In this document: in pieces, positions 1 through 64,000 of the stretch
Layout of the letters: each line of letters opens with the position of its first letter
Position numbering within the stretch: position 1 is the stretch's first letter
Source: Marsupella aquatica
Lineage: Eukaryota > Plantae > Marchantiophyta
Assembly (NCBI GenBank): GCA_973895155.1
Contig: OZ316895.1
Coordinates: 18,051,880-18,115,879, forward strand
Direction: 5' to 3'
DNA: 64,000 bases
Program-made: the position numbers and the translations under genes
The notes under the pieces: generated by a model
Database searches by the model: none
Told to the model about the DNA's origin: nothing
Seen by the model: the letters and a program-made list of their open reading frames with translations, nothing else

Positions 1-416
1 CATACAAACAGTACTTCTCATATACAAGATCTGCGAACTAAGCCGTGAGGCCAACTCTATTCATCTCTTATGTATGAGGAAACATGAATATACACAAGGG
101 TCATAGTATAACTAACCGAGAGCTTCTTTAACTACTTGATCCTAGCCCTGCTGGTGCACTAGAAACTTGCTAAGGAAGAAGGCCCTGAACTCCCCGCTGC
201 CCAGGTACTTATCCTGGTAGTGAATCCGTCTAATTCCTTGCAGCGTAAGCCTAATCTACCTAACCATAATCTACCTATGTACAGCGAGGTAGGAGCACAA
301 GTGTTGCTCTTACCAGTGGATCCGCAATCCCACTAAGCTAAGTGTCAGGGCCGCCCCTTGGTCATGATCCTAATTCTAAACTTGGAGATCTGAGCCTGCC
401 CTGCCCACTCACGCCT

Positions 417-600
417 CCTCCCTCCACGTCCGCCCTCCTTAAAAGGAGCGGCCCTCCACCACCGTCATGGCAGCGGTGTCTGGTCCTCAATGGATGCCCC
501 CAACACTTCCTCCCTCCACGTCCGCCCTCCTTAAAAGGAGCGGCCCTCCACCACCGTCATGGCAGCGGTGTCTGGTCCTCAATGGACGCCCCCAACACTT
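417..600. repeat. 92-bp tandem duplication covering the stop codon of the LTR ORF
   Basis: 417-508 and 509-600 are near-identical and bounded by TCCTCC microhomology; the other family-A LTRs have one copy. Confidence 0.85.
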
Positions 601-3160
601 CCTCCGCAGCCACTACCGTAGGTCTGTCCTCTGACAGATTACCTGCTCCGGACCGAGTCAACTCTTCATCGGCCTGACTGGGTCCACCCTCGGCTTCGGC
701 CTCAGCATCGGCCACGGCCTCCCCGGCATGTTCTAGTGGTGGATCCGGTACCCCGACTTCATCACCAAGTATCCTAGCCTCGGCTTTGCCATCCCCGCCT
801 TCTAGGGCAGTTGGATCCTCTGCCATGACCCTACCTGAGGTTGGTGCTAGGTTTACCTCCTTGGTCACGACGGCTTGAGGAGCCGTATTACTCCCTGACC
901 CAGAAGGTTTCCGCTTCTTCTTCTTCTTTGGTTCGGCAGCTGGCCCCTTCCCCTTGCCACTTACCTCCGGCACTGGTGCGAGTATCTCGGCTTGTACTTC
1001 GGCCAGTACTACTCCTGGTAAATCCTTCTCCCTAGCCAGGGCTGTCTCTTCTTCCTCCCTGAGTCATTCCTGAAACTCCTGTGCCGTCTGTTTTATGCCA
1101 TCAAAGCTCGGGGGAGCGACATCTGGTGGGGGAGACTCGGCTCTACTGGGTCCGGTCCCCTCGAACTACTCTTGGAAGAGTGGGGATGAACCTGCCACAG
1201 GTCCTTATTCCTGGAACATGATGATCCGACCCGTAGCCGGAGTCATCATTGTCGTAGCCTTCTACCGTCTCCTCCTCGGCTCCCCCCGTTGCTGTCCTGG
1301 TCCTGTCGTGAACACGGCCTCATAGATCACGGGTCCTGGTTCCTCCGGCTTCCACGTTGATCTCATCTTCTCCTTGTCGTGACCAGGGGCTTCGGGCTGC
1401 TTTTCCTCGGCTTTGGGACTTGAAGCTCCTACATACATTCGGACTCCCGGCTTGTGTTCCGGCCTCCTTCTCTCCTTGACCCCGGTAAAGGGGTTTTCCC
1501 TTGTAAGTTGGCTAAGGCCGACTTTGGGAGCAGTATTCTGTACCGGTCCCGTTGCCATTCTCCTTTCCTTCTCCAACAATTTTAGCAGATTCTGCATGCC
1601 TAGTTGCTGCATTGGCAAGTCCTCCTTCCTCGGCCTAAACACCTGCTCGATTGTAGGACTGTCGGGCTGGGTTGGTTTCTCTGTTGCCGGCCTTGGTTCC
1701 GGAACCTCTTCTGGTGCTCTTGCCTACAGGGGCAGTACCGGGGCAAATATCTGACTTTGGGCATACCGGCACAACAGCGGCATGTGATAACCAAGCCGGG
1801 ACACGCTTCCCATGCCGATCACCAGCTGTTCCTCCTTCAAGATCTTCTTTAGTTGGGTGAGGAGGTACCCATTGTAGTCTTGGCTTGGGTCTGGCCTCTC
1901 TGCCAGATAGACCTGTGCCTTGCCAATCTCTGCCCTTGGCAAGTTACAATGCATGGTCACCCGCAAGAAATCGATCATTTCTCCTATGTGCGGGTTTGTG
2001 CAGGTGTTTTGGAAGAAGCCATTCTTTGTTGATGGCCCTGGAAACGACCGGAACTCCTTGTCTGGCAAGGTCTTCCTGGTATCTACTTTGGTCTTATTGC
2101 CCATCGGCAAGCCAAACACTTCAGCAATCACCCGGGGAGTGAGTTAGAAATCCTTCCCATACACCCTTGTGGAATTGGTCTCGAGCTCCCATGATCCCAC
2201 GAATTCTAGTAAGTCTGAATCTGGCACCTCCGGCTTCAGCCATGGTAACTTTACGAATGCTCCCAAGCCGGATCCGGCCATGAAGCCCTGGTATTTCTGA
2301 GTCTGTATAGCCGTAAAGCATGCATCTTCTTCCCGCGCAAAGTGTAATTGCACCTCCTTGGGGAGGGTCGCCGCCAGCCTTTCCAGGTGTCATCTCTTGT
2401 TGGAACGACATTGACGGGGTCGACCTCCTCCTCTTCGGCTTCCGCCTGCCTCCTACTTCCTTGCTCTGCTAGTTTCCTGGGTGCCGCCGACCTCGTTCTT
2501 TTTGCAAGGGTGGCTTCTTCGTTGTTGTTCCCTTTCCTCTTCATAGCGGCTGCCGTGGATGTTTCTCCTAGCACGGTTGCCTTCGTCCAGCCCTCCGTGC
2601 TACCCTTCAACTCCCAGTGTATGTCGTTGCAGCGGTTGATGGCCTCCCGGATGCCGACTATTCTGTTCTCACAAAACAGAAGATCGTCGAGTTCGTCAGC
2701 AGTAGGCGTCCATAAGAATTCAGCCGTAATGAGTTTTCCTCCCAAGAAAGCAGACTTCTGCAGCTCCCATAGCCGAGCGAGCTCCTGCCGTTCTTGAGCC
2801 GCTCTCTCTGATTCTTTGTCTTCGTAGGTCCCAATGTACTCAGTTGCCCGTTCTAACAGGCATCCCCAAAAATGAGTAGCTTGATTGACGTTGCTCATAC
2901 CCTTCTTGAGTTGATTGTTGGTATCTGCTTCCACCCCGAGTGCTTACCTGAGCAGCGGACAGTAGTTGGCCTCCCGTAGTCGTCCGCTTGGCTTGTGCTT
3001 GCAAATGAGCCGCCATTCCTTGCGCTCGGTCCTTACCCCCTCCCCTTGGCTGGTCTTCCTTCCCATTGGTTACCCATAGCCGCCGGTACTTAGTGCGCCC
3101 TAAGCCTAATCGTGTTCCCTCCCCCGGCGTCCTTACTTTCAGCCTCGGCTTGGGTTCCAT
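557..3160 (-). pseudogene. Frameshifted copy of the family-A LTR-encoded protein, coiled coil deleted
   Basis: ORF fragments 2251-2934, 2144-2353, 1724-2131, 1262-1642 and 557-973 match successive parts of the 1211-aa ORF. Confidence 0.9.
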
Positions 3161-3272
3161 AGTCACCCTTAATTGTTTATATTTCCCTGTTTTTGTTACT
3201 ATACTAAGGTGTTTCCTAGGGTACACTCCTGATTTTTCTATTTAAACTAATGATTCCTGGCTAGGCATCACA

Positions 3273-5099: not shown

Positions 5100-8000
5100 T
5101 GTCACGCCGTAAGCCTTGTCCTTACACGGATTTTAGCTTAGACGGGCATAATCTTCATTAGTTTTAAGGGTTCGGGCAAGGAGGGATGTGCAAACTAAAC
5201 CTTACTCCCGTAATCTAGCACTAAGTGCGCCTATTCCTACTTACAAAAATATCATGGGTATAGTTTGTGTTCCACCGCCGGAACATACCTTAAGTCAATA
5301 GTTGGATTGACCCCGGCTTAAGGGCTTCTAAGCCTTTGTACTGTCCGCCTCCGATCCAGATCCAATGATACGGGTATCCAACCCAGGCTCGCAACCACTA
5401 TCCGCAGTCCACACCCCTGCATTGCTCGGATAATGCATTCGGCCCAGCATTCTCTACCCATATACAAGATTCATACATGCAATTGAACTCACACACATGC
5501 AATCTTGGTTTACACAAAGGAAATGGTGGGAAAAGACTTTACTTCAGAATCCGTCATACACATATACACGGTTGACTCAACAGCTCTTGAGTAAACAAGC
5601 CCAACGGTAGAGAGGCATACACTACAACGGAGCTTGGCTCCGCACTTGCCCAACGAGCTTAGTCATACCCTCCCTCCTTGGTGTTCTTTTACTCACAAAG
5701 GCCGGGACTCCCCGCACATCTTGCGCATACCCGGTTCTGAAACTAAAAATCCCCCTCCCTCTACCAGGGGATGCACTAAATACTAAGAGCCGAGGTTGGA
5801 ACAACCACATGCTCAAATCTATGCTATCTAAGATTCTAAACTCTGCTAACTGTCAGGCCGTAAAATGACGTGTCTTATTCTAAGATTCTAGCTATGAAGG
5901 TTGGTCGGATAGGACAGTGCTGCTAACTAGTTTCAGCCCTTGTCCTTATCGTTTGACTATCCTAAGTACTCCTAATGCTATTCTAACCCTGTTCCGCCGC
6001 TAATGTCTGGTTTGCTTGCCAGACCCGCCTGAGTTGGATTTGGAGCGGCCATCCCGCTGCCTTCTGAGCCGGTCGGCGTCCTGCTTGAGCTGCTGGACCT
6101 GGTCCAGCAGAGATTTGTTCTCTTGCTTTGCCGCATCCATCTCCTCCGCGGCTTCCTAGCATGCCTCTTCCAGTTGCCGGGCGTTGCTTGTCAGCGTTGT
6201 GATAACCGCATCGTCCGGTACAGACGGAGGGGCGGCAGCTGCTGGTTGTGGGGCCGGGGTAGTTGTGGGCCTCACAACCACCGGACTTTTGGCCTTGGGT
6301 TGGGGTTGCCTTTCTTGGGCCGGGAATACCCACCATGATGGGGTTAGCTTGGGCTCGTTGATCCAAGGGAGGCTTCGGCGGTCCAAACGGGCGTACCACT
6401 TGATGATGATTTTGATGTGGCTAGCAAGGTACGCCTTTCTGCCGAGGTACAAAGTCTTCCTTTGCCGCTCCATCTCCTCATGGAACTTCTTGACAAAGAA
6501 AGATGACTTGGGCGGCGGATACTTCGCCACTCGGTTCCATCATGTGGAGGGCGTACCTCTGGAATTCCAGACGCTTTGCTACCTCCGGGATGAGGCATGT
6601 CCTCATCAAGAATCCGTTGTCCACTGCTCCTTTGGCCGGGAAGCTAAAGGACTGATACTTGGCTCCTTTGCCCCCGGGAGCCCGTGACTCCACCCAATTT
6701 TTTCCTTTGGGTAGGCCAAAGATCATCTTAAGCCGTGCCTCATTCAGGGACATCACTCTCCCGTATGCACGGGTTTGTTGGCGGGCTTCGTCAAAGTTTT
6801 GGATGAACTCCGTCATGTCCTGCCCGTAGTACCTGCTTCCATTCCAAGGGAGAGAGGCAAGGTGCTCAAACCCTTGGGTCTTCAGGTAGCATGCATGCTT
6901 GGGGTGGAGAATGTTCTTGTGGACATTCTCCCCCATGCGATGCATGGTCAGCTTGGCCACCGCAACCGTGGCCAAAGGCAGCCCTGATACGGCTGCGGGT
7001 TCCTTTCTCTTCCTACCCCAAGACTGGTTCATGGGGTGACTTGAAGAGGGGGACATCTCCCCATCCTCTCTATTGGGTGGCGGCAGCGCTACCGCCATAA
7101 GCACCGGTGCTGGGGTTGCCACTGTCGCCGTGTTATCCACCCGGGCTTGTGTGGGTGGTGCTGGGTTGCCAGTTTAGGGGAGGGTGAGCTTCCTCATCTT
7201 TGGAACTGATGTTCACCGCGTTTACCATGGATCACACCCGGAGGGGTGGTGCGACCGGTGGTGGAGAATGGCTTGGCTAAGGCCAAGGTAGTATTGGTGC
7301 GGGCACCGATGAGTTGGCGACGGTTGTAGCTGGAGGAAGCGCCATAAGATTCAGGAAGTCTGAGGGGAAGCCAAGTGAGGTCAAGATAGATGCCTTGCCC
7401 GTAGCTGCGGTATCAAAGTGATGGTCTATGGAAGCCTAGACTTTGGCGGGGACATGATTGAAGTGGTGTTGCTGTAAGTCGATCGTGCCCGGGAGTGTGA
7501 AGACCTTGTCCGGAAGCCAAAAGAGTGCTTCCGGGAAACCAACGTACTTTGGGCCGTCAAAGAAGTATTTGGAGATCTTGTCGGCTTGACAGAGCTTGCT
7601 CTGGAACGGGAGGTTGAAATTGCCGTTATAGTGAGAGCACCCGGCCAGGCGAATGAGTCATTCATTCTGCCTTTTGGTTTCGTACCGGCGTGGGTTGACC
7701 TTGGCCAACGACTTAGCTAAATGATTTCCGATGGATAGAAATTGAAGCCAAAACCAAAGGGCAGAATTGGACATAATAGTGACAGACATACATGGAACGG
7801 CGGTGGATGACTAAGGAGCACATGAGCAAGCTAGGATTAAAGCTGGCACAACGGGTGAAGTGTTGGTGGTTTGCAAGATAATGGCCCGCCTTTTATACCT
7901 TGAGGGCTCGTCGGCCGAAATGGCCCCTTCCTCCTTTTGATAGGCCGATCCTTTCACGCTTGCAGTGTATCGGCCACTCCGATCCATAGGTCCAGGTCAG

Positions 8001-8270
8001 AACGTGTAAGCGAGCCACTCCCTTGAGTCTTTATACGCGTCGGACCCGAGGGGACATCCCCACACGCTTGTAACTCGGGGGTACAAATGGCGCTCCACCG
8101 CTAGTCCAAGCATAAATGCTCCTTATTGACTAATGATGTCCTAGTCGTGATTACTACCTACTTTAGTGTCGTTATATATGCTAATTACTACAGACTACTA
8201 TGTCCTTAGCACGCATGCTAAGCACGATTAGACCGGATTACTCATTAACCACCGTGTTGGCGGCGTCACA
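5100..8270 (-). repeat. 3' LTR of element B (internally deleted)
   Basis: Starts TGTGACGCCGCC at 8270 after the PPT and ends GGCGTGACA at 5100. Homologous to 17232-20654. Confidence 0.9.
6000..7789 (-). pseudogene. Family-B LTR-encoded ORF, 3' LTR copy, with deletions and frameshifts
   Basis: ORFs 6478-7140 and 6156-6530 match the 490-aa ORF at 18036-19508. Confidence 0.85.
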
Positions 8271-8285
8271 TAGCTCCCTACTTAA

Positions 8286-11200
8286 CTATGAAGCGTCCTT
8301 GCAAACGTTGCCATCGATGGTATCATCTTGATGATGGTACTTCTTCACACGACCGTAACTAATTTGCATGGAAAGTAAATTGTCGGCATACGTTGCAAGC
8401 TCAATGGAGCCGTTCGGGTAAATTTGACTGACAAGGAAAGGTCCCAACCAGCGAGTATGTAGCTTCCCGGGAAATTGCATGTACCTGCTATCGTACAGAA
8501 GGACAAGGTTGCCTGTTACAACGTTGATCTTCCGTAGTCCTTTGTTGTGCTGCTTCTTGGATACTGTCTGTTTCTTCACTGCGTGTTGGGCAGCTAGTAC
8601 CCTGGCTTCCTCTAATGCTTTGATCTGGTAAGCTCTTTCCAAAGAACTTTTGGCTTCGAATGAGCAATCCCAAATACTTACACGTGGTGTGTGAATTTCA
8701 AACTCCACCAGCACCAATGAGTGTTGCTCGAGCACGAGAAAGTGTGAATTGTGACTGGTAGTAGTCTTGTAAGCCAAATTGTACAAGTACACAGCGGCGT
8801 ATAATTTGTCATCCCAATCTGTTTTGTGTGCGGCTACTATTTTTTTGAGGATCTTCCCAATGATGCCATTCGTCCTTTCCGTCAGTCCGTTGGCCTTTGG
8901 TGGTATAGGGTGGTCTTGCAGTGCTTGACCAGGTACCGTTCCGTAAGGCGCTCTACGGTTTCATTGATGAAATGCGTTCCCCAATTGTTGACTAACTCCA
9001 AAGGGGGTCCAAAGCAAGTGAAGATCTGCTCATACAAGAACTTGGCGCTGGTAGCTAGCGGCATCATCCTTCACCGTTGCCCAAGCTTCCACCCATTTGG
9101 TGGAGTAGTCTATGGCTAGTAGGATGTACCAGCACCTGCATCTTCGGGTAACCGGAGTGAAATGCCCAATGTAATCAATGCCCCACTTCTCGAATGGTGC
9201 TAGTGGAAGTACGAAGGTGGTTGTGGGCTTTCCTCGGGGCGCCAGCCCGTTGACATAAATTGCATCCTTTAATAAAGCGTCGCACATCCCGATGTAACAT
9301 AGGCCATCAATACCCCAAATCCAAGATCTTACAAGCAGTAGTGATGGCCGCAAAATGGCCCCCAACTTCCTCTTCGTGTAGGGCCCGCATAACAATGAGC
9401 GTTTCCTTGTATTCAAGGCAGCGCCGTAGCTTTCCATTAACTCCCTCTTGTGTAAGTGACCCCTTATCATCACATACGGTCTGGCCTTTTGTAAGAATAC
9501 GGCGGCGGCCTCCTGATTGATTCCATTGGGGATGCGGCCTGTTAGGAGGAAGGTAATGAGCGGTCCGTACCACGTGGCCTACCTGCCCCTACGTGGAATA
9601 ATTCCTCATCTGGAAAAGTATTGCTAATAGGCTGATCTATAGGTACACCATCCAGTCTTGAAAAGAAATCGACGTTGAGGTGTGCCTTCCCCGGCCAAAC
9701 TCGTACCTTGTAGTTAAACTCCTGTAAGAGCAGTACCCACCTGGCTATCCGCCCTGTGACATCTGCTTTGTTCACCATATATTTTAAACTATCATGATCC
9801 GTATGAAGGATGACTTTATATCCAAGCAGGTAGTGTCGGAACTCCTTACACGAGTAGATAATACCTAGAGCTTCTTGATCGGTGGGGGAATAATTTTTCT
9901 CAGCCGTAAATAGCTAACAACTAGCAAAATAGATGGGGTAGTCGCGACCGTCCTTGTCCAGCTGGCTTAGTACGGACCCAATGCAAAACCCCAAAACATC
10001 AATGTACACATGGAATTCCTTATTCCAATCCGGGGTTACCATGATGGGTTACGTGATGAGTCAGCGCTGGAGTTCTTCAAAAGCTATATGTCTCCAGGGT
10101 GTCTCTTCAATCACTGCATCCTTCTTCATCATCTCCGTTAGGGGTAACGCAATTTTAGCAAAATCTTTGATGAATCGGCAATAGTACCCTACCCAACCCA
10201 GGAACAACCGTACGGCTTTTTCATCCACTAGGAACACTACCGCCATATATCCAGGCTGGAACCTTCTCCTGGTCTACCTCGATACCTCGTTTAGACACAC
10301 AATGCCCGAGTAACACCCCTTCCTCTACTCCGAAAAAACATTTTGCCGGATGCAACTTTAAATTTACTTCTCTGCATCATTGGAGCGTACGGCGTAAATG
10401 TTTGGGGTGCATGGCAATGGTTCCAAAGATGGCAAAGTCATCAATAAATATTTCCAGGAATTCCCGTAGGAAGTCATGGAAGATATTCATCATGAGTCTG
10501 GAACATGGCCAGGGCGTTACACAGTCCAAATGGCATTCTACAAAATGCGAACGTCAATAACTCCGTGGTAAATATTGTTTTAAGCTAATCCACGAGTCGG
10601 ATCCAGATTTGATTGTAGCCCGAATACCTGTCAAGGAATGTATATATTTCATTACGGGCTACCATATATCCAAAACCATATTTGGAATGGTAAGAGGTAG
10701 TGATCCTTCCGGGTGGCATCATTTAGTTTACGGTAGTCCTGGCAGATGCAAATTTTGGGCTTCCCGTCCATACCTCCCTTCTTTGGCACGATGATGATGG
10801 GAGACACCCAGTAACTGGCCATTACCGGGTAGATGATATCCGTGGCTAGGAGACAATAAATCTCCTCTTTCACCAAGATGCAGTACCTTGGGTTCATGCG
10901 ATGTTGCCGCTGCCGTACGGTGTGAGCTCCCAGGTTCAAATCGATCATGTGTTCTCCCAACTCGGGGGAGACTCTAGTCAAATCGTGATGGCTCCATGCA
11001 AACACATCTTCATACTCCTTGAGCAATGCTTGGATGGATTTTTCCGCCTCCCCCTTCAGCTCATGGCCTAAGTTGAAAGACTTATCCATCCCAATAGTGT
11101 ACTTCCGGTAGTGTTCCTTCCTTATGACCTCCACTTGGTTCTGCAAGCTAGGGTCCATACTTGCATTCAGCTTGGCTAGCCGAACTCCTCCGTACATAGG

Positions 11201-12009
11201 TGGAACCGGGATTGGTTTTGGAATTGGGGTTGTTTCCTCTTGTTGCGGATGGATGGATCCCAGGAGACTCGTTTCTTATGCTTTGGCGTTGGGATCTTGG
11301 CTTCGGGTGATGCCCTGGCCGGTTTTGGGTTAGTAGGGTCAGCATCGGCTCCCTACTTAGCTCGAGCCATATGCTCCATGCCCTTCAAGTTGATGGCTTG
11401 CTGTTCATCTTCCCAGGTGCTAGAGAGGCTTGGGGTAGTCCCGTCTATAGCGACTTTTGGGTAATTCAAGAGATGCGTCTCCCGGGTTGCCTCTATCCCC
11501 AAAACATCTTCCTTGGATAGGGACAAAATAAGCTCAATCATATTGAGCTCTTCTTCCTCCGAGGTCTCCAAATCGTACTCCTCTGGTCCCTGTGGAGTCT
11601 TGCCCTGATAATCGTCCACCGCCCATGATACTTGTACCGTGGGTGTCCCAAATCATAGCTCCTTCTTGCCCCAGTCCGTGACTACACGGCCACTGTACAG
11701 CCACGGCCTTCCCAAGAGAATTGGGTAAGAAGATGGTCGGACCGGCCTCATGACCAAAAAGTTTAGATAAAACTCCACACCTCCTACGAGGGTGAGAACT
11801 TTGGTGAGCGTGCCCAGGGGAAGTACTCTTGCACTATTTGCTAATCGAATAGCTCGGGCTATGGGTTGATACGTGAGATACCCCAATTTTACAGATGTTT
11901 TCTCAGTCATAATGTTGAATCCTGCTCCGTCGTCCACAAGAACCATTTTGATAGTACAGCCCTTGATCTCGATCGAGATGTCCGGCGCTCCCAGGTCCTC
12001 ATAGATCAT
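8286..12009 (-). pseudogene. pol: Element B pol: protease, RT, RNase H and integrase, fragmented
   Basis: Motifs VLVDDGAGFNIM (PR), SPIIIVPKK and QDYRKLN (RT), GRIARWVLLLQEF (RH), PFEKWGIDYIG and GKLHTRWLGPF (INT). Confidence 0.92.
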
Positions 12010-13073
12010 ATTACAATCCGCGACTCCTACTCATGGTAGCCGTCTTCTACGTCGGCCCGTGAGCAACTCCCTTAGTTGTTGCCGGTATTGGGGATTATTC
12101 TAGAGTAGTTGTCCTACTGTTGCTGTGACTAGGCAACTCTTCACGTCTTGTCAAATGTCGTACTCTTCCTTCTTTTCTTCCTTTGGCTGCTGCTTTGCTT
12201 CTGTGCACTTCTCGCTTCTCCTGCTCTTCCCATTGAGCGGCCTCAACAGCTTTTAGGTCTTTATCAATTGCTTTCTGGTATTCCCGTGCTTCGTATGCTT
12301 CCAACTGTTGCTTTACCAACTCTTTGATGCGGGGGTAGAATAGCTTCGGGTTATCCCGATGGCAGTCGTCATCCTCCTCTGGGGGTATTTCTACCGTTGG
12401 CTGCACTGGCGTGGTGTCTTGCTTCCGTCGGTGTTTCTTGTCCTATTTCTCTTGCTTTCATTTGGATCTGGTTGACACTCGATAACATTCAGCCTCATCT
12501 GACGGATTGGGATGTTCTGTTACATCGACCAAGTTGACCCACTCAGTGTTATCATCTTGCCATTCTACAGTGATCATTGAACGACTGCATCGCTCAAAGC
12601 TGGTCCACCTGGGGCTGGCCTAGCTGCCCTTGCTCGTGCGGCAATCACCAATGGGCAATTAGCCATGGAATGAGCCTCCGTTTTGCAAACTTGACATAGT
12701 GGCATGCCTTGGCCATCTCCTTGCCATCTTTGTTCAGTGCATTCCCTTGCGAAGTGACCGGGCTTCTCACAGTTGTAACAACCCAGGGATTGCCAAATCC
12801 CTGGTTTAGGAGGAATGCTCAAGTTACTTATCACTTGGAAGCCTCTGCCACCATTTGGGTATGGATATGCAGTTCTGCCAGCCAAATTCCGAGGACCCAC
12901 CGTGGAAATTTGATACACGGAGTCAGGGGGTTCTTCGAAGAAGTACTCCGTGGTCTCCGGTTCTGGCCCTGGGTTGTCGACATCATCCAATTCCACCTGA
13001 TGGACTCGATTCTTCCATCTCGGGCATTCTTGCACCACATGCCCCGATTGGAAGCACTTGGAGCACCACGCAT

Positions 13074-15770
13074 TGTGACGCCAATGACATGGTCCTTATT
13101 CTATAATCTGATTAACTAGGCTGTTGTATGCAAGGAGTAGCTATTGATATTGCATAACAATTAGCAAGCTGGCAAGAATAAGGGCAATCATGGCGTTAAG
13201 AGTAGGGATAAATGTATTTAAGCTTGAAGACTGCACAACCAAGGCAGACACAATTGAGGTAGTCATTGTCAAGGCCACAAAGGAGAAACTGGGGAAGAGA
13301 GGATTCAGCTCTTCAAGCATACCATCTTCTTGACAAGCAAGATGGAGCATGGAGGCTCTTCAAGATGCCGGTACGGAGGTAGGCGTGGTAATTCAAGGAA
13401 GCGAGTCTCCATAGCTGAATATGAAGTTGTGGGGTATGGTGATTGTGCTCAAGATGAAATCTAAATGTCTTGGGTGTGTAGCTTCATTTTGTTAGTTAGG
13501 TTAGTGGTTCATAGGCTAGTCTTAGAATGTTAGGGAAATAAAAGGCTATGTCGCGGGTGGTCGGCGACCATATCTCATTCAATACGTCACCAAATCCGGA
13601 TCTGCAAAGAGCATTGGAAAGATCTGGTCAAGGCGAGTAAATTCGATATAAAACACTCAAGAAACGGAGGTGTATTAAGGAAGATATGGCCTGATTAGTG
13701 TGACAGGTTAACTTGTGGCCGGAATTAGCGGATTCGGCTTCGGTTTCGGGTTAACCTAAGCTCGGCCACGGCTTAGCTTATGTGAGCATGGCTTCAGCTT
13801 AGCTCATGTAAGCACGGCTTCAGCTTAGCTCAGGTCAGCCTAGCTTCAGCTTAGGCTTAACCCGGGTTCGGATTAGATTGATCCCGGGTTAGACTGAACT
13901 CGGGTTTGCCTAAACTCGGGCTTGGGTTAGCATAGGTAAGTTCGGGTTCGGGCTCAGCTTAGCCTAGGTTAGTGGGTAGCGGCCTAACCCGAGACCACGG
14001 GTTAGCTCTACTCGGGTTAGCTATGTAACTCGGGTTAGCATAGCAGTGAGTACCCCCTCTCGGTTGCGGGGGCATAACTTTCTCTATATTTGCCCAAATC
14101 GGCTATAATTGACCTTGTTGGAAAGAGGAGCTCAAGCTGCTTCCAACGCTGCTATCCACGCAGCAAATGGTTGAATAGAGAAATCGGGAGAGGAGGCACA
14201 AGCTCACAAAAACCATGGAGGAGGGCCAAATCCAAAGTACATAGTCAATTCGAGATAGAAATAAAGTTGCGAGTTAGGGTTCAGTAGTTAGAGATAGTGG
14301 CGGCTCTATTAGGGCTGGGATGGGGCTCCAGCAGCATAGTATCCACCCATTTGGGCTCAGTATGAGAGTATATAGAGCAGCCCCCCCGGTAGAGGCAGGG
14401 GGACTTCAGTTGTGTGATCTCATGTAGACTGAGCAACAGGGAGGAGCTCTGTGCAAGGAAGGCTGGGCTTGGAAGCTGTGTACGGGGGAGAGCTTGGTTG
14501 TGCTATTACTCAAGGAGTAATCAGCCACGCTTCACAGCAACAGTTGGCCAGTTTTGCAAGCTAGATTGTGGCTCTTTCTAGTAGGCAACACAACTGGGTT
14601 TTTTTCCCCCGATACAGAGCCTTGGTGATAGGTGATGTGTTGGTGATTGTAAACTGTGGGGAGGATTTCAATTCAATTTGCGGTGAGCACATTAGGAAGG
14701 CTGAGACACTGATTGAGGGGTAGCAGGAGGAACATTTACAGTTCAGTCTGGCAAGGCTACGTGATCCATGGGGAGTCCCGACCGTTGTCTGGTAGAGAGC
14801 ACTAAGGGATTTATGGCCAGGGCTGAGCTTGCAAGGCAAGCATGAGGCCGGGCCTCATTATAGTCTGGGGTAGATAGCCGTTAGGCCTGGTACCAGCTTT
14901 GAAGTCGAGTCAACTGTGCATGCGTAACTTGACATTATGAAATGGAGGTGTGAGATCTGTACGTGTCCCCAAGAATGAAGTTGCAGTGAAGGAGGTTGAG
15001 TTCAGGATTGAGTTTGCAAGGCAAGTACGGGATTGGTTCGAGTCCAATCTGCCGTCGCAATCTGGAGTGAGCCAGGCTCAGGTTCAGGTTTGAGCTTGCA
15101 TGGCAAGCACGAGGCTTGCAGGGCAAGCACGTCGCAATCTGGAGGAGACAGCCTTCGGGCCTATTGTTCGGATCAAGTGTTCTCAGTGAACTATTGTGTG
15201 CACACCTTTGAATCTAATTGAGTTTTCCTCTCAGGCCTCATTTCTCTCATGGATGTGTGTGTGTGTGAGGCAATCTGAGTGTATGATGGGACTAGCAGTG
15301 CCATTGAGAGGTGTACCAGGTGCATCAAAGTGGGTTGGGTGAGGGCTATCACAGCTCTAATTGCTGATAGTGGAATGGCAGAGTGGTGGGGCAATGGCTT
15401 AGAAGTCCCTAAGCCAAGAATCAGTCAGGAGTCACTGGTTTATGGGTATATTCCGACGGCAGAATAGAAATATACCTACGACAGTAAGCATATGTATAGA
15501 CATATGCGCACCGTAGCGCTAGGGCCCTATGTGTACGAGCCCAATATGAAGACCCCTTCTCACTAGAACTACCATGAGCACAGGATCTGATTCCCAACCT
15601 TGGTTCCTAGGGATTGAGCTTGGGTGATGTGTGACAGAGTCTTGCTATGATAGTCTGGTGTTAAGGGCATAAACTGGTGTTTACCGGCCTTCACAACATC
15701 CCTTCGTGATCCTCAGGTACAAGGAGATAGTGACATTTTTGGTGTTAAGACCCATGTCAATCGCGTGACA
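13074..15770 (+). mobile_element. 2697-bp solo LTR (third family) inserted in element B gag
   Basis: Termini TGTGACGCC...GCGTGACA with a CGCAT TSD at 13069-13073 and 15771-15775. Removing it restores FKTRVHAWCSKC in gag. Confidence 0.85.
13735..14045. repeat. Degenerate short-repeat and palindrome cluster inside the solo LTR
   Basis: Repeated GGCTTCAGCTTAGC and CTCGGGTTAG units. Confidence 0.65.
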
Positions 15771-16611
15771 CGCATGCACTCGGGTTTTGAATGGCTTCTT
15801 CTTCTCCACGGGCTTCTCTGCAAGATGTACCGACAATGCTTTAAGGCAATCAGTGATTTTGTTGAGCTTGTCTGTTTCAGCAGCTTTAGAATCTGGTATC
15901 GTTCTTTGAACACGAGGTTTGATTTTCTCTTCCTTCTTAGCGCGCCGCTTCTTCTTCTTGCTTTGGGTCTCGCTCTGCAAATTACTACCCGATGCGCTTG
16001 AGGTGGAGGAGCCACTGGTCAAAGTTGAATCCAAACTAGACCCTGTCTCCAAAATGGACAAGGTCGAACGATGTTTCTTCTTCTTCTTACGCCTCTTCTT
16101 CTTCTCGTCGTCTGATTCAGAGTTAGTGTCACTAAAGGTCTTGTACTTGCTCTTTTTATGTCATGCCCATTGGCTTCATCAGGAGTTATAGGTGGACTCC
16201 CTGTATGTCTCTATGGCTGGCTGCATTGAAATTGGGTTATTCTGGCATACCCAAAATTGCATATTTGTGGGCAATCCGTGTAGAAACCACGTAAGTTGGA
16301 GCGCATCGCCTGGCTTGGGCCGGATCTTGGCCGCAAGTTTCTGGAACTTTTGAATATTTTTTTGCAAGGACTCCTTCTTTCCATGCGAAGCTGACCAATC
16401 GTCAACAAGGAACGCTGCTCTGCTCCAATGGCACGAAACTCTTGTAACAACGTGGCCTGGAACTGTGGCCATGTAATCCCGGGTTGTACCATGGATGAGC
16501 TTCTCCCTGCATTACTCCGGTAAGAATGGTCAACTTAATGGCATCCTCTCCGTTGGCCTTAGCAGTGGCTTCAAACTCATCCAACCATTCATCCAGATCG
16601 TCCCCATGGTC

Positions 16612-16841
16612 AACGTCCTTTGAAAGGTCAATAATGAAACCGTGATCGTTGTGATACCCCTGGGCCCTTAGTCTTAACTAATACATGGAGGACGTGAGAA
16701 CGCTCAAAGGGTAGTTTTGATTCATTTTGAACTAATAATTATAATTATTATCGGTAATAAGGGAACTTTTAATGGTAAAATGGAAATAACAAGGGGTAAA
16801 TACGAAAAGGGCCCGATCGCAAGGGGTCCGCTTATTTTACA
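16612..16841 (-). mobile_element. Truncated AT-rich insertion (probable LTR fragment) in element B gag
   Basis: An AT-rich block breaks gag. On the minus strand it starts TGTAAAATAAG at 16841; the other end and a TSD were not found. Confidence 0.4.
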
Positions 16842-17573
16842 CAGTGAGGGCCCGAGGTGTGATACTTGTGGGGGAGCTTGGGCCACACGAGCCACAGCCG
16901 GAGGGGCTGCCGCCATGGGTACCGGTGGCGGAGGTGGCACTGGCGGTGGTGCAGTAGGGGCCGGACCAGGACCTGCTAGACCGAATCCCGAAGGTCCTGG
17001 TGGTATTTCATCTGTCGAGGCGATTGTGCGTCCTCCGATTGTGAAGATTTGGAACTTGTTGTGGTTGCACTTTCTCGCTCACTTGTCAATCTCCTCAAGT
17101 AAGTCGCTTGAGAACAAGTGACAGGCATCTACTCTTATAAATGTAATGGTTAGCAACTATCTGGGGCCCAAGGTCCTGTGATCAGGTACAAACGCACATG
17201 TGTCCATTCTACTATACTTAGAAAGCCCTAGCGAGCTTAGTCATACCCTCCCTCCTTGGTGTTCTTTTACTCACAAAGGCCGGGGCTCCCCGCACATCCT
17301 ACGGATACCCGGTTTTGAAACTAAAATCCCCCTTGCCTCTACCGGGGGATGCACTAAATACTAAGAGCCGGGGTTAGAATGACCACATGCTTGAATCTAT
17401 GCTATCTAAGATTCTAAACTCTGCTAACTGTTAGGCTGTAAAATGGCATGTCTTATTCTAAGATTCTAGCTACTAAGGTTGGTCGGATAGGACAGTGCTG
17501 CTAACTAGTTTTGGCGCTTGTCCTTATCGTTTGACTATCCTACTCCTAATGCTATTCTAACCCTATCCCGCCG

Positions 17574-20189
17574 CTAATGTCTGGTTTGCTTGCCAGACCC
17601 GCCCGAGTTGGATTTGGAGCGGCCATCCCGCTGCCTTCTGAGCCGGTCGGCATCCTGCTTGAGCAGCTGGACCTGGTCCAACAGAGATTTGTTCTCTCGC
17701 TTTGCCGCGTCGGTCTCCTCCGTGGCTTCCTGGCACGCCTCTTCCAGTTGCAAGGCGTCACTCGTCATCTTGTCCACCAACTGGGCCTGCTTTGTGGCTT
17801 CTCCTTGAAGCCGTGCCACTTCCGCCTTCAGGGCGTCTATCTCGGTTGTGTCCCACTGGGCCCGAGCGTTGGCCTCCTCCACATCCTTTTGCCAGATGAT
17901 GGCTTGTCCCTTCAAGCCGTCAATTTGGGTTTGGAGCCGTGCAATCTTGGCATCCTTTCCTGCTCCATCCTGCTCTGCCACGGCTGCCTGGGCCCTAGCT
18001 TCTACCACCTAATCTTCAGTGGCCGCTACCTGAGGTCAAAGCAGTTGGAGTTTGATCTCTCGGGCTGACACTTTGCCTTTCGGGTGGGTAGACTCAAGCC
18101 AATACCGCTCTATCCTCTGCGTAGCCTCAGCCTGCACATGCCTTGCTTGCACGGCTGCAACCAATTCTTGGTTGAAGAAGTAGGCCACCTTCCGTGCCAT
18201 GTACTCCCCGGTATCCCGTGCAATTTTTTGGGAGAAGTCTCCCAGCAACCCATTCAAATACGTGCCTGGTGCAAAGAGTTCTGGGTACTCTAGACTATGC
18301 CCATCCGGGTTTGGGCAAGGGCAAACCTCAGCTTGCACGGGAGTCAGAGTGGTGACATCCAGTCCTTGAAATATGTCAGTAGAGGGGGCTGGGTTTGCAC
18401 GGGATGGGTGGTTCTCCTGGACAGCCGTGGAGGGTAACGGAGTGTCCTCCGTATCTGTAGTCTCGGGTCCGGGACCAGCCTCTGCCAACCCGGCCTCGAT
18501 TGCGCTGGCCTGGTTCATAGAATCTAGGGTCATGATAACCGCATTGTCCGGTAAAGACGGAGGGGCAGCAGCTGCTGGTTGTTGGGCCAGGGTAGTCGTG
18601 GGCCTCACGACCGCCGGACTTCTGGCCTCGGGCTGGAGTCGCCTTTCCTGGGCCGGGAATACCCACCTTGATGGGGTTAGCTCGGGCTCGTTGATCCGAG
18701 GGAGGCTTCGGCGGTCCAAACGAGCGTACCACTTGATGATGATTTTGATGTGGCTAGCCAGGTACGCCTTCCCGCCAAGGTACAAAGTCTTCCTTTGCCG
18801 CTCCATCTCCTTGTGGAACTTCTTGACGAAGAAAGAGGCCCACTTCCTAGGCCGGTAGTTCTTGACCTGGATGACTTGGGCGGCGGATATTTTGCCCCTT
18901 GGTTCCATCATGTGGAGGGCGTACCTCTGGAATTCCAGACACTTTGCTACCTCTGGGATGAGGCATGTCCTCATCAAGAATCCGTTGTCCATTGCTCCTT
19001 CAGCCGGGAAGCTAGAGGACTGATACTTGGCTCCTTTGCCCCCGGGAGCTTGTGACTCCACCCAATTTATTCCTTTGGGTAGGCCAAAGATCATCTTAAG
19101 CCGTTCCTCATTGAGGGACATCACTCTCCTGTGCGCATGGGTTTGTTGGCGGGCTTTGTCAAAGTTTTGGATGAACTCCGTCATGTCCTGCCCGTAGTAC
19201 CTGCTTCCATTCCAAGGGAGAGAGGCAAGGTGTTCAAACCCTTGGGTCTTTAGGTAGCATGCATGCTTAGGGTGTAGAATGTTCTTGTGGACATTCTCCC
19301 CAATGCGATGCATGGTCAACTTGGCCACCGCAACCGTGGCCAAAGACAGCCCTGATACGGCTGCGGGTTCCTTTCTCTTCCTACCCCGAGACTGGTTCAC
19401 GGGGTGACTTGAAGAGGGGGACATCTCCCCATCCTCTCTATCGGGCGGCGGCAGCGCTACCGCTGTAAGCACTGGTGCTGGGGCTGCCACTGTCACTGTG
19501 TTATCCACCCGGGCTTGTGTGGGTGGTGTCAGGTTGCCCGGTGCATGCTGATTTGCACCTCAAGGTCGCCGGTTTAGGGGAGGGTGAGCTTCCTCATCTT
19601 TGGAACTGATGTTCACCACGTTTACCACGGATTGCACCCAGAGGGGTGGTGCGACCGGTGGTGGAGAACAGCTTGGCTGAGGCCAAGGTGGTGTTGGTGC
19701 GGGCACCAATGAGTTGGCGATGGTTGTAGTTGGAGGATGCGCCATAAGATTCAGGAAGTCTGAGGGGAAGCCGAGTGAGGTCAGGATAGATGCCTCACCC
19801 GTAGCTGCGGTACCAAACTGATGGTCTATGGAAGCCTGGACTTTGGCGGGGATATGATTGAAGTGGTGTCACTATAAGTTGATCGTGCCCGAGAGTGTGA
19901 AGACCTTGTCCGGAAGCCAAAGGAGTGCTTCCTAGAAACCAACATACTTTGGGCCGTCAAAGAAGTATTTGGAGATCTTGTTGGCTCAATAGAGCTCGCT
20001 TTGGAATGAGAGGTTGAAATCGCCATTATAGTGAGAGCGTCCGGCCAGGCGGATGAGTCGTTCGTACTGCCTTTCGGTTTTGTACCAGCGCGGGTTGACC
20101 TCGGCCAACGACTTTGCTAAATGATTTCCGATGGATAGAAATTGAAGCCAAAACCAAAGGGCAGAACTAGACATAATAGTGACAGACAT
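17574..20189 (-). pseudogene. Family-B LTR-encoded ~870-codon ORF, broken only by in-frame stops
   Basis: ORFs 19986-20189, 19560-19745, 18036-19508 and 17574-18008 are all in one frame and separated by TGA/TAG stops; several of these are sense codons in the other LTR. Confidence 0.85.
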
Positions 20190-20290
20190 ACAGGGAATGG
20201 CGGTGGATGACTAAAGAGCAAATGAGCAAGTTGGGATCAAAGCTGGCATGACGGGTGAAATGCTCGTGCTTTGCAAGAGAATGGCCCGCC

Positions 20291-20297
20291 TTTTATA
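20291..20297 (-). promoter_or_regulatory. TATA box candidate upstream of the family-B LTR ORF
   Basis: TATAAAAG about 100 nt upstream of ATG 20189, conserved at 7891-7897 in the other LTR. Confidence 0.5.
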
Positions 20298-20654
20298 CCC
20301 TGAGGGGTCGTCGGCCGAATGGTCCCTTCCTCCTTTTGATAGGCCAATCCTTGCACGCTTGCAGTGTACCGGCCACTCTGCAGGTCCGGGTTAGCGTGTC
20401 AGCGAGCCGCCCCCTTGAGTCTTTATAAGGACCCAAGGGGACATCCCCACACGCATGTAACCCCGGGGTACGAATGGCGCTCCGCCGCCAGCCCGAGCGT
20501 AAATGCTCCTTATTGACTAATGATGTCCTAGTCATGATTACTACCTACTTTAGTGTCTTTATGCTAATTACTACGGACTACTATGTCCTTAGCGTGCGTG
20601 CTAAGCACGAAGTAGACCGGATTACTCATTAACCACCATGCTGGCCGCCTCACA

Positions 20655-22541: not shown

Positions 22542-22672
22542 AATTGCCGGCATAGACACCAGGCCGGGATCGTGCTAAGTCGGAATCCAAAACTCTTAAC
22601 GGTTTTTTGCGGGGACTTGGTGCTTTAGCGTGCCTGGCAGGTTGACTGCGGGCAGATTCAATCGCTAGGAAG

Positions 22673-31975: not shown

Positions 31976-31979
31976 TTTT

Positions 31980-31997
31980 TGGCGCTAGATGGAGGGG
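31980..31997 (+). other. Primer binding site, probably tRNA-Asn
   Basis: TGGCGCTAGATGGAGGGG, one mismatch to the complement of the plant tRNA-Asn 3' end as I recall it (CCCTCCTTCTAGCG-CCA). Confidence 0.75.
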
Positions 31998-32044
31998 GCA
32001 TTTCTTAAGCCGTGAGATATGAAGTTAGAACGGAAGCGTAGGTA

Positions 32045-38000: not shown

Positions 38001-38209
38001 GGTTTCCTGGAAAGCTTTACACTCGCTGGTTAGGACCCTTTAGAGTAACCATGATGTTCCCCAATGGCTCCGTACAATTGGCCAACATTACGGGAGAGGT
38101 ATATCCAGTTCGCATCCATTATGACCGCCTCAAGAAATACTATATGGACGAAGATGAAGTTGTTCGCGAGGATGCTTCACAATTAAGTGGGGAGCTATGT
38201 GATGCCTAG
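32045..38209 (+). pseudogene. gag-pol: Element A gag-pol (three CCHC knuckles, PR, RT, RH, INT) with stops and frameshifts
   Basis: PR IDGGSG, RT FIDDF, RH FVDVS..NYSTTERE, INT WGIDYIG/SDRG/NGLTE/WLGPF. Lesions near 34016, ~34975, ~35113, 35563, ~35920 and ~37128. Confidence 0.95.
38185..38194 (+). other. Polypurine tract of element A
   Basis: AAGTGGGGAG three bases before the 3' LTR; the equivalent sequence precedes the family-B 3' LTR. Confidence 0.85.
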
Positions 38210-62900: not shown

Positions 62901-64000
62901 TCAGGCAAGGTCTTCCTGGTATCAACTTTGGTCTTATTGCCTATCGGCAGGCCAAACACTTCGGCAATTACCTTGGGAGTAAGATAGAAATCCTTCCCAT
63001 ATATCCTCGTGCAATTGGTCTCGGGTTCCCATGACCCCACGAATTCTAATAGGTCTGACTCCGGTACCTCCGGCTTCAGCCATGGTAATCTTACAAAGGC
63101 CTCCAAGCCGGATCCGGCCATGAAGCCTTGGTACTTCTTGGTCTGCATGGCCGTAAAGCATGCATCCTCCTCCCGTGCAAAATGTAGTTGCACCTCCACC
63201 GGTAGGGTTGCCGCCCAGCCCTTCCAGGTGTCATCCCTGGTTGGAATGGCCTTGATGGGATCGACCTCCTCCTCTTCGGCTTCTCCCTGCCTCCTGTTCT
63301 GCTGCTCGGCTGGCTTCTTTGGTGCCGCTGACCTCGTTCTTTTTGCCGGGGTGGCTTCATCGTTGACGGCTCCCTTCCTCTTCATCTCTGCTGCCGTGGA
63401 GGTTTCTCCTAGCACCGTTGCCTGGGTCCACCTTTCCGTGCTACCCTTTAATTCCCAATGTATGTCGTTGCAGTTCTTGATGGCCTCTCGGATGCCGACG
63501 ACGTTGTCTTTGCAAAACAGAAGATCGTCGAGTTGATTGGAAGTAGGCGTCCACAGGAACTCGTCCTTGATGAGTTCGCCTCCTAAGAAAGCCGTCTTCT
63601 GCAGCTCCCACAATCGAGCGAGCTCCTGCCGTTCTCGAGCTGCCCTTTCTGGCTCCTCGTCCTCGTAAGTCTTGATGTACTCAGTTGCCCGTTCGAACAG
63701 GCATCCCCAGAAATGTGCCGCTTGATTGACGTTGCTCATACCCTCCTTAGGTCGATCGTCGGTATCTACTCTCTCCCCGAGTGCTTGCCTAAGCAGCTGA
63801 CAGTAGTTGGCCTCCCGTAGTCGTCTGCCTAGTTCGTGCTCGCAAATGAGCCACCATCTCCTGCAAGCGCTCCTTACCCCTCTCCTCCGCCGGTCCTTCT
63901 TCCCGTTGATCCTTCCTAGCCGCCGACGCTTAACGCGCCCTAACCCTAATCGGGTTTTCACCCTCAGCCTTACCTCCGGCCTCGGCCCGGGTTCCATGGT
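59946..64000 (-). mobile_element. Family-A giant LTR (3' or solo LTR) inserted in the CACTA accessory-gene intron, running off the right edge
   Basis: Reverse complement of the element A LTR, ending ..GCACCACA at 59946 with no PBS after it. Confidence 0.95.
60867..63997 (-). pseudogene. Family-A LTR ORF with a 501-bp in-frame deletion, a stop at 61766 and a 1-bp frameshift near 61685
   Basis: The 743-aa and 264-aa ORFs match the 1211-aa protein. Confidence 0.92.

What the first reader, a model, noticed from the sequence alone, without database searches (positions are those of the whole stretch)
5100..20654. A second, dissimilar Gypsy family also encodes a homologous protein inside its LTRs
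Seen: four ORF fragments in the 5' LTR form one frame of ~870 codons (20189-17574), also present in the 3' LTR. By eye the A and B LTRs share no DNA similarity beyond the termini, but the proteins align. Family A reads GLEAFVRLPW..DLLEFV..GKDFYLT..VFGLPIG..NGFFRNTC..P..KAQV..LGYH. Family B reads GFEHLASLPW..DMTEFI..GRVMSLN..IFGLPKG..NGFLMRTC..P..AAQV..LASH. Both end in a coiled coil. Inference: the coding LTR is an old, selected lineage trait rather than an accident.
Basis: partly seen in the sequence, partly recalled or inferred. Interest (0 to 1): 0.85.

Follow-up and report, generated by a model that had tools for sequence, protein, structure and literature searches.

The report
VANC-like gene inside liverwort retrotransposon LTRs
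Two related Gypsy jumping genes, likely from a liverwort, each carry a long protein gene inside their end repeats (intact in one, broken in the other); its conserved core is predicted to fold like VANC21, a plant transposon protein that binds its own DNA and lifts silencing, so each end repeat would likely act as a small self-protecting gene.

Summary
Observation confirmed, with corrections. Element B (5100-20654, minus strand, 5-bp target duplication) has an 871-codon frame inside its 5' LTR, broken by 7 stops, and a deleted, frameshifted copy in its 3' LTR. Element A (27313-42860) has an intact 1124-codon gene in both LTRs. The LTR DNAs do not align, but the proteins share a ~190-aa core (E 6e-16; 0 of 2000 shuffles) and an N-terminal domain, and both end in a coiled coil. 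The A gene is under purifying selection (dN/dS 0.10 in the core). 71 database hits form an unnamed family; all 13 with a named organism are liverworts. A confident model of the core matches one solved structure among 48,161: VANC21 (Z 8.3, 210 residues aligned). Language-model leads are DUF1985, PMD, Transposase_32 and ATHILA. TATA-like boxes precede the ORF and 3'-end-like signals follow it, so each LTR is likely a complete gene. A DNA-binding anti-silencing role is inferred, not shown; VANC-type motif arrays were not found. A and B are close RT relatives (66%), and one relative shows no such ORF in 1.57 kb before its primer site, so 'lineage trait' is only partly supported.

The parts
5100..20654 (-). 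Element B: decayed non-chromovirus Ty3/Gypsy retrotransposon
   Evidence: TG...CA ends, 5-bp target duplication, gag-PR-RT-RH-IN remnants
17232..20654 (-). B 5' LTR (3' ~550 bp and primer site missing)
   Evidence: Matches the 3' LTR at 91.9% over 2596 aligned bases, K2P 0.087
17574..20189 (-). B accessory ORF, 871 codons, 7 internal stops (19988, 19934, 19874, 19871, 19562, 18038, 18011)
   Evidence: both flanking stops shared with the 3' LTR, 0 of 4 testable internal stops shared
19833..20174 (-). B N-terminal domain (~115 aa, no known family)
   Evidence: Profile of 5 database homologues hits B 6-119 (E 1e-15) and A 110-211 (E 2.4e-7)
18726..19334 (-). B core domain, VANC/PMD-like
   Evidence: BLASTP to A E 6e-16; Atlas leads DUF1985 0.90, PMD 0.89
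17625..18017 (-). B C-terminal coiled coil (approximate limits)
   Evidence: 15 weak Pfam coiled-coil hits, all below cut-off
20291..20297 (-). TATA-like box ~100 bp upstream of the B ORF; a second one at ~20427
   Evidence: Both kept in both B LTRs; no TATAAA in the ORF or tail; function inferred
5100..8270 (-). B 3' LTR with ORF remnant (7789 to ~6003) and ~900-bp TGTA-rich tail
8271..8285 (-). B polypurine tract, directly after the integrase stop; near-identical to A's
   Evidence: sequence
8286..16731 (-). B gag-pol remnant, with a ~2.7-kb insert in gag (~13090-15770)
   Evidence: tblastn with A and database relatives; Pfam
27313..42860 (+). Element A: young Gypsy element inserted in a Copia element; 5-bp target duplication
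   Evidence: LTRs 4663 bp, K2P 0.007
27689..31063 (+). A accessory gene in the 5' LTR, 1124 codons from Met106 of the open frame
   Evidence: dN/dS 1.03 for codons 1-106, 0.13 for 107-225, 0.10 for 276-490 against A'; neutral test 0 of 500
38574..41948 (+). A accessory gene in the 3' LTR, intact
   Evidence: 98.8% aa identity to the 5' copy
27407..27412 (+). TATA-like box in the A LTR head
   Evidence: Only TATAAA in 4663 bp; also in A'; function inferred
31980..31997 (+). A primer-binding site, 4 bases after the LTR
   Evidence: sequence; tRNA-Asn assignment is recalled, not confirmed
1..3272 (-). A' subfamily LTR (81% to A), decayed ORF, no polypurine tract before it; cut by the window end
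59946..64000 (-). A-family LTR (97%), no primer site after it, so a 3' or solo LTR; cut by the window end

Best explanation
Families A and B are related non-chromovirus Gypsy elements, likely of a liverwort, whose LTRs each contain a long sense-strand accessory gene; its core is predicted to have the VANC/PMD fold, and the protein likely works as a nuclear, oligomeric DNA-binding factor that keeps its own family's LTRs active against host silencing. Shown: the gene lies wholly inside the LTR, after the polypurine tract and ~900 bp before the LTR end, in both families; it is under purifying selection in A; A and B share an N-terminal domain and a core domain, and both end in a coiled coil. Predicted: the core fold. 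Inferred: a promoter in the LTR head and 3'-end signals in the tail make every LTR, solo LTRs included, a complete transcription unit; the gene is the Athila-type 3' extra ORF that became part of U3 when the polypurine tract came to lie upstream of it; binding is sequence-specific and the effect is anti-silencing or transactivation.
For: Homology. Selection: A vs A' dN/dS 0.26 overall, 0.10 in the core (95% 0.06-0.16), 1.03 upstream of the start; amino-acid changes 23 against 50.3 expected under a mutation-spectrum-matched neutral model, 0 of 500. Family: 71 hits at E<=0.001 in 1.84 billion proteins, one of them (P0058, ankyrin) a likely false hit; 13 of 30 looked up carry an organism name, 11 Calypogeia fissa and 2 Riccia sorocarpa. 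Fold: AlphaFold2 on 42 sequences, pLDDT 89.6, pTM 0.87; VANC21-DNA is the only chain with Z>=2 of 48,161 (Z 8.3, rmsd 4.1, 210 aligned; Z 8.6; Foldseek rank 2, TM 0.48, E 0.99). Atlas leads: Transposase_32 0.88 and ATHILA 0.87 for A, DUF1985 0.90 and PMD 0.89 for B. PMD-C and VANC DUF1985 are reported to be structurally similar (10.1101/2024.09.27.615353; PMC13547354; passages). The core is net basic in 23 of 27 near-full rows, with conserved K/R positions in and after a flexible loop. No membrane-spanning segment in 6 of 6 proteins, basic NLS-like motifs in 6 of 6. TATAAA occurs only in the LTR heads; TGTA per kb is 0 / 0.9 / 6.6 (A head / ORF / tail) and 0 / 0.4 / 10.0 (B).
Against: No sequence-level link to VANC or PMD: Pfam gives no hit for A or B cores at E<=10 other than one unrelated weak match; 3 of 42 family members hit Transposase_32, best E 0.0058, far below cut-off; the family profile finds no PDB match below E 0.37; hhalign to one Transposase_32 sequence scored 17.4, within shuffles (max 23.1). 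Z 8.3 with rmsd 4 is a middling structural score and Foldseek's E-value is not significant. VANC targets form tandem arrays (PMC5735166, passages); no array or over-represented 7-9-mer was found in the non-coding LTR parts. No transcript evidence was available. A shared fold shows no function; MAIN/MAIL1 carry the fold and were first described in silencing (PMC5418596, passages). B's own LTR pair shows no significant selection overall (82 of 500), only a hint in the core (8 of 500). The host is inferred from homologues only; no genome is held.
Confidence: 0.55

Rival explanations
1. Same gene, other transcription map: the head TATA box is the element's only promoter, so the ORF lies in a ~4-kb R or U5 and is the first ORF of the genomic RNA, with gag-pol made from a spliced or read-through RNA.
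For: No TATAAA in either ~900-bp tail. A' has a consensus-like splice donor ~50 bp upstream of the start codon.
Against: That donor is GC, not GT, in 3 of 4 A-family copies. No clear acceptor between primer site and gag start. A 4-kb strong-stop cDNA would be far longer than in known retroelements (recalled).
Confidence: 0.3
2. The protein is a chromatin tether or structural helper (steering the integration complex, nuclear import, or an oligomeric scaffold) rather than an anti-silencer.
For: Long coiled coil; no chromodomain at the integrase end; no VANC-type motif arrays. Athila-domain and VANC proteins are predicted to form coiled-coil pentamers (PMC13547354, passages).
Against: The only structural match is a sequence-specific anti-silencing factor bound to DNA; a gene with its own likely promoter in every LTR suits a trans-acting regulator.
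Confidence: 0.2
3. The protein is a self-limiting repressor that binds the LTR and dampens copy-number growth.
For: MAIN/MAIL1, which carry PMD, were first shown to be needed for TE silencing (PMC5418596, passages).
Against: Later work explains part of that through protection of MORC1 from Polycomb repression (10.1101/2024.09.27.615353, passages); family A is young here (LTR K2P 0.007).
Confidence: 0.1
4. The gene is old but its place in the LTR is not: an internal 3' extra ORF was taken into the LTR separately in A and B, or the trait is patchy within the clade.
For: L001 (86% to P0090, same RT clade) has no such ORF in 1.57 kb before its primer site. A and B cores are not sisters in the domain tree. 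LTR position in Calypogeia and Riccia could not be seen; one near-identical pair in Calypogeia is numbered mirror-wise, which does not show direct repeats.
Against: A and B share orientation, head and ~900-bp tail layout, a near-identical polypurine tract and an integrase stop at the LTR edge, which one origin explains more simply. L001's LTR may be longer than the part seen.
Confidence: 0.2
5. It is an env-like membrane protein.
For: Sense orientation after pol, the position of env-like ORFs (PMC7264820, main text).
Against: 0 of 6 proteins have a 19-residue window with hydropathy >=1.8; globular DNA-binding-like fold.
Confidence: 0.03

Closest known systems
VANC21 of Arabidopsis VANDAL21 (Mutator-like DNA transposon; PDB 9LNK/9LNJ; DUF1985)
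   Same: Predicted core fold (Z 8.3-8.6, 209-210 of 230 residues aligned); transposon accessory gene; coiled coil.
   Different: 8-9% identity; retrotransposon, not DNA transposon; likely liverwort, whereas VANC is called dicot-specific (PMC13547354, passage); gene inside the terminal repeat; extra N-terminal domain; no motif arrays found.
Extra ORFs of plant OTA Gypsy elements: Athila ORF-1 (PF03078), Transposase_32 (PF20167), Ogre PMD (PF10536), Retand Transposase_28 (PF04195)
   Same: Non-chromovirus Gypsy host; globular domain plus coiled coil; Athila's is also sense and 3' of pol (PMC6317226 supplement 4); Atlas leads.
   Different: Those are described in the internal region (PMC7264820); here the whole gene is in the LTR and present twice per element. 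Below all Pfam cut-offs.
Host PMD proteins MAIN / MAIL1 / MAIL2
   Same: Reported to share the VANC fold and to counter Polycomb silencing at promoter motifs.
   Different: Host genes of angiosperms; no sequence match here.
MMTV sag (superantigen ORF in the LTR)
   Same: A complete accessory gene inside the LTR (PMC11998498, passages).
   Different: Sag is a membrane protein of a mammalian retrovirus; unrelated; the ORFs here are several times longer (Sag length recalled, ~320 aa).
Athila clade of non-chromovirus Ty3/Gypsy
   Same: 5-bp target duplication, no chromodomain, no extra RNase H, large LTRs.
   Different: A and B group with liverwort and unnamed elements, apart from the angiosperm hits (midpoint root, no curated references).

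Membership tests
Ty3/Gypsy LTR retrotransposon | LTRs with TG...CA ends, target duplication, order gag-PR-RT-RH-IN | tested here: met
Chromovirus | Chromodomain after integrase | tested here: not met
   No Pfam chromodomain; integrase ends at the LTR edge in A and B
Tat (TatI-III, Ogre, Retand) | Additional archaeal-type RNase H in pol | tested here: not met
   One RNase H only in A's pol frames and in relatives P0090, P0093, P0098; definition from PMC6317226 section 9
Phygy / Selgy | 4-bp target duplication, short elements without extra ORFs | tested here: not met
   5-bp duplications, 15.5-kb elements against supplement 5 of PMC6317226
Athila | 5-bp target duplication, no extra RNase H, no chromodomain | tested here: met
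Athila | Primer tRNA Asp, Asn or Ala | tested here: inconclusive
   A's primer site reads as tRNA-Asn from recall only; no tRNA gene in the window, paper search unhelpful; B's site is lost
Athila | RT-RH inside the Athila clade | tested here: inconclusive
   119 of 120 hits plus A and B: A and B sit in a clade of 5 (support 0.99) among liverwort and unnamed elements, apart from angiosperm hits; no curated lineage references, midpoint root
VANC / DUF1985 | Pfam DUF1985 match above cut-off | tested here: not met
   No DUF1985 hit in A, B or 71 homologues
VANC / DUF1985 | Core fold | tested here: met
   Only chain with Z>=2 of 48,161; Z 8.3, rmsd 4.1, 210 aligned; predicted model, middling score
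VANC / DUF1985 | Target motif in tandem arrays in the element's non-coding DNA | tested here: not met
   No array or over-represented 7-9-mer in non-coding LTR parts against 200 shuffles; dispersed motifs are not excluded
VANC / DUF1985 | Sequence-specific DNA binding and loss of methylation on targets | not testable with these tools
   Needs DAP-seq/EMSA and methylome
PMD (PF10536) / Transposase_32 (PF20167) / ATHILA (PF03078) | Pfam match above cut-off | tested here: not met
   Best is Transposase_32 at 17 bits against cut-off 45, 3 of 42 members; Atlas leads 0.87-0.89 only
env-like ORF | Membrane-spanning segment | tested here: not met
   0 of 6 proteins
LTR-internal gene of MMTV sag type | Complete ORF inside both LTRs | tested here: met
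   A intact in both; B broken in both
LTR-internal gene of MMTV sag type | ORF lies in U3 and is transcribed | not testable with these tools
   Only assembled contigs were served; start sites cannot be seen

The most novel reading that the evidence does not exclude
A liverwort Gypsy lineage has turned its LTR into a self-contained anti-silencing gene: every LTR, including each solo LTR left by recombination, expresses a VANC-fold DNA-binding protein that recognises its own family's LTR and keeps it open. This would be a sequence-specific anti-silencing system in a retrotransposon, and would place the VANC/PMD fold in Gypsy elements before the liverwort-angiosperm split, favouring a retrotransposon origin for PMD, MAIN/MAIL and VANC.
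Probability: 0.35. Interest if true: 0.9.

Novelty: new variant of a known kind. Interest (0 to 1): 0.76.

Why it matters
Extra ORFs of plant Gypsy elements are common but their function is unknown, and the reviews I read place them in the internal region (PMC7264820, PMC6317226). Here a 870-1120-codon gene sits inside the LTR, so the usual way hosts shed elements, recombination to a solo LTR, would leave the gene whole. Its core gives a structural link from a retrotransposon extra ORF to VANC21, the best understood transposon anti-silencer. Ikeda et al. 2017 call the ancestry of Gypsy versus genic PMD 'fully open' (PMC5418596, passage), and a 2026 atlas derives VANC from host MAIN-like genes (PMC13547354, passage); a deep liverwort Gypsy family with this fold makes both testable. 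Element A supplies an intact natural gene for binding and methylation assays. Caveat: the VANC21 structure paper (Tanaka et al. 2026) was not held and may already note retrotransposon relatives.

Tried and rejected
No whole genome is held, so copy number and solo-LTR counts in the source genome are unknown. Word-indexed homologue searches failed: one time-out, none of 483 candidates, 1 of 7993 with the profile; only the full HMMER scan found the family. Pairwise alignment of the N-terminal regions, the helical region before the coiled coil and the coiled coils was not significant (399, 525 and 149 of 2000 shuffles); the N-terminal link came only from a profile, and the pre-coil region stayed unsupported. 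The N-terminal domain has no Pfam or PDB match and was not folded with an alignment; the single-sequence model of P0074 was poor (pLDDT 41.5) and was not searched. Foldseek against viral structures: nothing at E<=0.001. No RNA holder listed among public runs. Contigs of 4 runs cover the A LTR with higher summed depth than the internal region, but this is no copy number. No GT-AG joint among the 15 shown of 130. The viral-contig scan could not run on the divergent alignment. Earlier-findings look-ups by place, by sequence and by one word set gave nothing. Literature: six phrases for an ORF inside an LTR gave 24 papers, 22 listed, none on a plant LTR protein gene by title or abstract start; liverwort-Gypsy searches gave 2, 0 and 3 papers, none relevant by listing. 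bioRxiv supplements and two large supplements of PMC6317226 (element table, sequences) could not be read and may bear on whether LTR-internal ORFs were recorded. Rejected: chance ORF from GC-rich DNA (selection starts at the start codon); a nested insertion mimicking LTRs (ends, target duplication, primer site and polypurine tract all bracket the coding repeat in A); env-like; Tat, Phygy, Selgy, chromovirus.
Full report
Elements. A self-comparison of the window shows two repeat pairs. Element A is 27313-42860 (+), with 4663-bp LTRs that differ by 0.7%, a 5-bp target duplication, a primer site 4 bases after the 5' LTR and a polypurine tract before the 3' LTR. Element B is 5100-20654 (-), with a 5-bp target duplication and LTRs 8.7% apart; its 5' LTR lacks the last ~550 bp and the primer site. 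Both have gag-PR-RT-RH-IN without chromodomain or second RNase H. In both, the integrase frame ends at the LTR edge and the polypurine tracts are near-identical. So the coding repeats are true LTRs, and there is no internal 3' region that could hold an extra ORF.

The ORFs. A has a stop-free 1229-codon frame in each LTR. Against the 81%-identical A' copy, dN/dS is 1.03 for codons 1-106, 0.13 for 107-225 and 0.10 for 276-490. A neutral test that keeps the mutation spectrum agrees: 370, 0 and 0 of 500. The gene therefore starts at Met106 (27689) and has 1124 codons. A's coiled coil is deleted in A', so selection there was not tested with this pair. B has an 871-codon frame with 7 internal stops. 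Of these, 4 align to the 3' LTR and none is a stop there; 3 fall in deletions; the 3' LTR has 5 stops of its own; both flanking stops are shared. One of the 3 untested stops (18011) is read otherwise in most of the laid depth in 3 of 3 runs that cover it; 18038 is not among the 40 rows shown of 76. An intact 906-aa database protein, P0074, aligns to B 6-497 (32%, E 6e-74) and 641-870 (E 4e-12). B is thus a decayed copy of an open gene. Between B's two LTRs the changes are near neutral overall (82 of 500), as expected after insertion, with a hint of constraint in the core (8 of 500).

Homology of A and B. LTR DNA gives no match better than E 0.09. The core aligns at 24% over 184 residues, E 6e-16, and beats all 2000 whole and 2000 local shuffles. 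N-terminal regions do not align significantly pairwise, but a profile of 5 database N-termini, chosen by eye for likeness to B, finds A 110-211 at 24.2 bits against a best of 7.6 in 2000 shuffles. The shared layout is N-domain, low-complexity linker, core, linker, coiled coil.

The family. A profile of 5 window pieces found 71 proteins among 1.84 billion; one is an ankyrin protein and likely false. Of 30 looked up, 13 carry an organism name: 11 Calypogeia fissa, 2 Riccia sorocarpa. One Calypogeia cluster has 6 members at about 90% or more, as for a mobile gene. No Pfam family covers the domain. The host of this window is therefore likely a liverwort; this is inference. Near-identical A DNA is held by runs of 4 coded organisms at half of the sampled words or more.

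The fold. AlphaFold2 on 42 sequences (2 window, 39 of the 71 hits, P0074) gave pLDDT 89.6. Among 48,161 solved chains only VANC21 bound to DNA reached Z>=2: Z 8.3, rmsd 4.1, 210 residues aligned, 9% identity. The second look gave Z 8.6; Foldseek ranked it second with TM 0.48 but E 0.99. The score is middling, but it stands alone and spans the domain. The Atlas, queried separately, gave Transposase_32 and ATHILA for A (0.87-0.88, leads only) and DUF1985 and PMD for B (0.90, 0.89). Passages of two papers report that PMD-C/MAIN and VANC's DUF1985 share a structure. Sequence-level tests did not confirm the link. I read the core as a divergent member of a VANC/PMD structural superfamily, not as a member of any one Pfam family.

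How it likely works. TATAAA occurs only in the LTR heads: once in A, also in A', and twice in each B LTR. TGTA-rich, T-rich sequence typical of plant 3' ends (recalled) is confined to the ~900-bp tails. Each LTR would thus hold promoter, gene and terminator. The protein has no membrane segment and carries basic NLS-like motifs (6 of 6); the core is net basic in 23 of 27 rows. VANC21 binds a 9-base motif in its own transposon and causes loss of methylation (PMC5735166, passages). By analogy the protein likely binds its own LTR and counters silencing. Against a strict VANC model, no tandem array or enriched short word was found in the non-coding LTR parts. Whether the ORF is in U3 (second, TATA-less promoter in the tail) or in a very long R/U5 (single promoter) cannot be told from sequence; I favour U3.

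How old is the coding LTR? RT-RNase H of A and B is 66% identical, and in a tree of 119 of 120 hits they fall in one clade of 5 (support 0.99), apart from the angiosperm hits (midpoint root, no curated references). The cores are 24% identical and sit on different branches of the domain tree. One origin before the A-B split is the simplest reading. But L001, 86% like clade member P0090 in gag, shows no accessory ORF or homology in 1.57 kb before its primer site, and the position of the Calypogeia and Riccia genes is unknown. The trait is old in these two families and may be patchy in the clade.

What is known. I read section 9, passages and supplements 4 and 5 of PMC6317226, the main text of PMC7264820, and passages of PMC11963269, PMC5418596, PMC5735166, PMC13547354, PMC12859917, PMC11998498 and 10.1101/2024.09.27.615353. 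They describe extra ORFs in the internal region of angiosperm Gypsy elements, PMD in angiosperms, VANC in dicot Mutator-like elements, and Sag in the MMTV LTR. None of what I saw describes a whole gene inside a plant LTR or this liverwort family (searches). The VANC21 structure paper was not available. Two unchecked notes of this scan report unrelated genes inside fungal Gypsy LTRs, so the layout may recur.

Verdict. Real, selected and homologous; a new variant that joins a known domain superfamily to a rare LTR-internal layout. Function is inferred. Interest 0.76.

Noticed in passing
L001:1992-2237 (+): A related Gypsy element carries an intact Elf1 transcription-elongation-factor zinc ribbon ORF (PF05129, E 3e-28) between its primer site (1570) and gag (2299): a likely captured host gene.
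   Followed up: partly
window 56232-57047 (-): SET-like ORF (PF00856, E 4e-6) directly upstream of CACTA transposase pieces (Transposase_21, DUF4218, DUF4216; 52672-56088). Possibly a chromatin-modifier gene carried by a CACTA element.
   Followed up: no
window ~13090-15770: A ~2.7-kb insert splits B's gag; it holds a 26-bp tandem repeat (3.2 copies, ~13770-13855) and 16-bp repeats. Identity unknown.
   Followed up: no
window 25446-47192 (+): Copia element with identical 161-bp LTRs, split by element A; it in turn sits in a LINE (RT and endonuclease 47199-50355, zf-RVT 24361-25441, minus strand).
   Followed up: no
window 31716-31741 (+) and ~5257-5283 (-): The best DNA match between A and B LTRs (23 of 27 bases, E 0.09) lies in both tails, 180-260 bases from the LTR end, and could form a small hairpin; not significant on its own.
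   Followed up: no
window 18850-19650: B's two LTRs differ by about 5-7% over the core-domain region against about 10% elsewhere; gene conversion from other copies or a recombinant origin is possible.
   Followed up: partly
window 22646-24240 (+): A further, unrelated gag fragment (weak Ty3_capsid hit, zinc knuckle) with no trace of the accessory domain.
   Followed up: no
P0066, P0072 (Riccia sorocarpa gene models): The most divergent members of the family are fused in their gene models to a DDE_Tnp_4 (Harbinger-type) piece; either a model artefact or the domain also rides on a DNA transposon.
   Followed up: no
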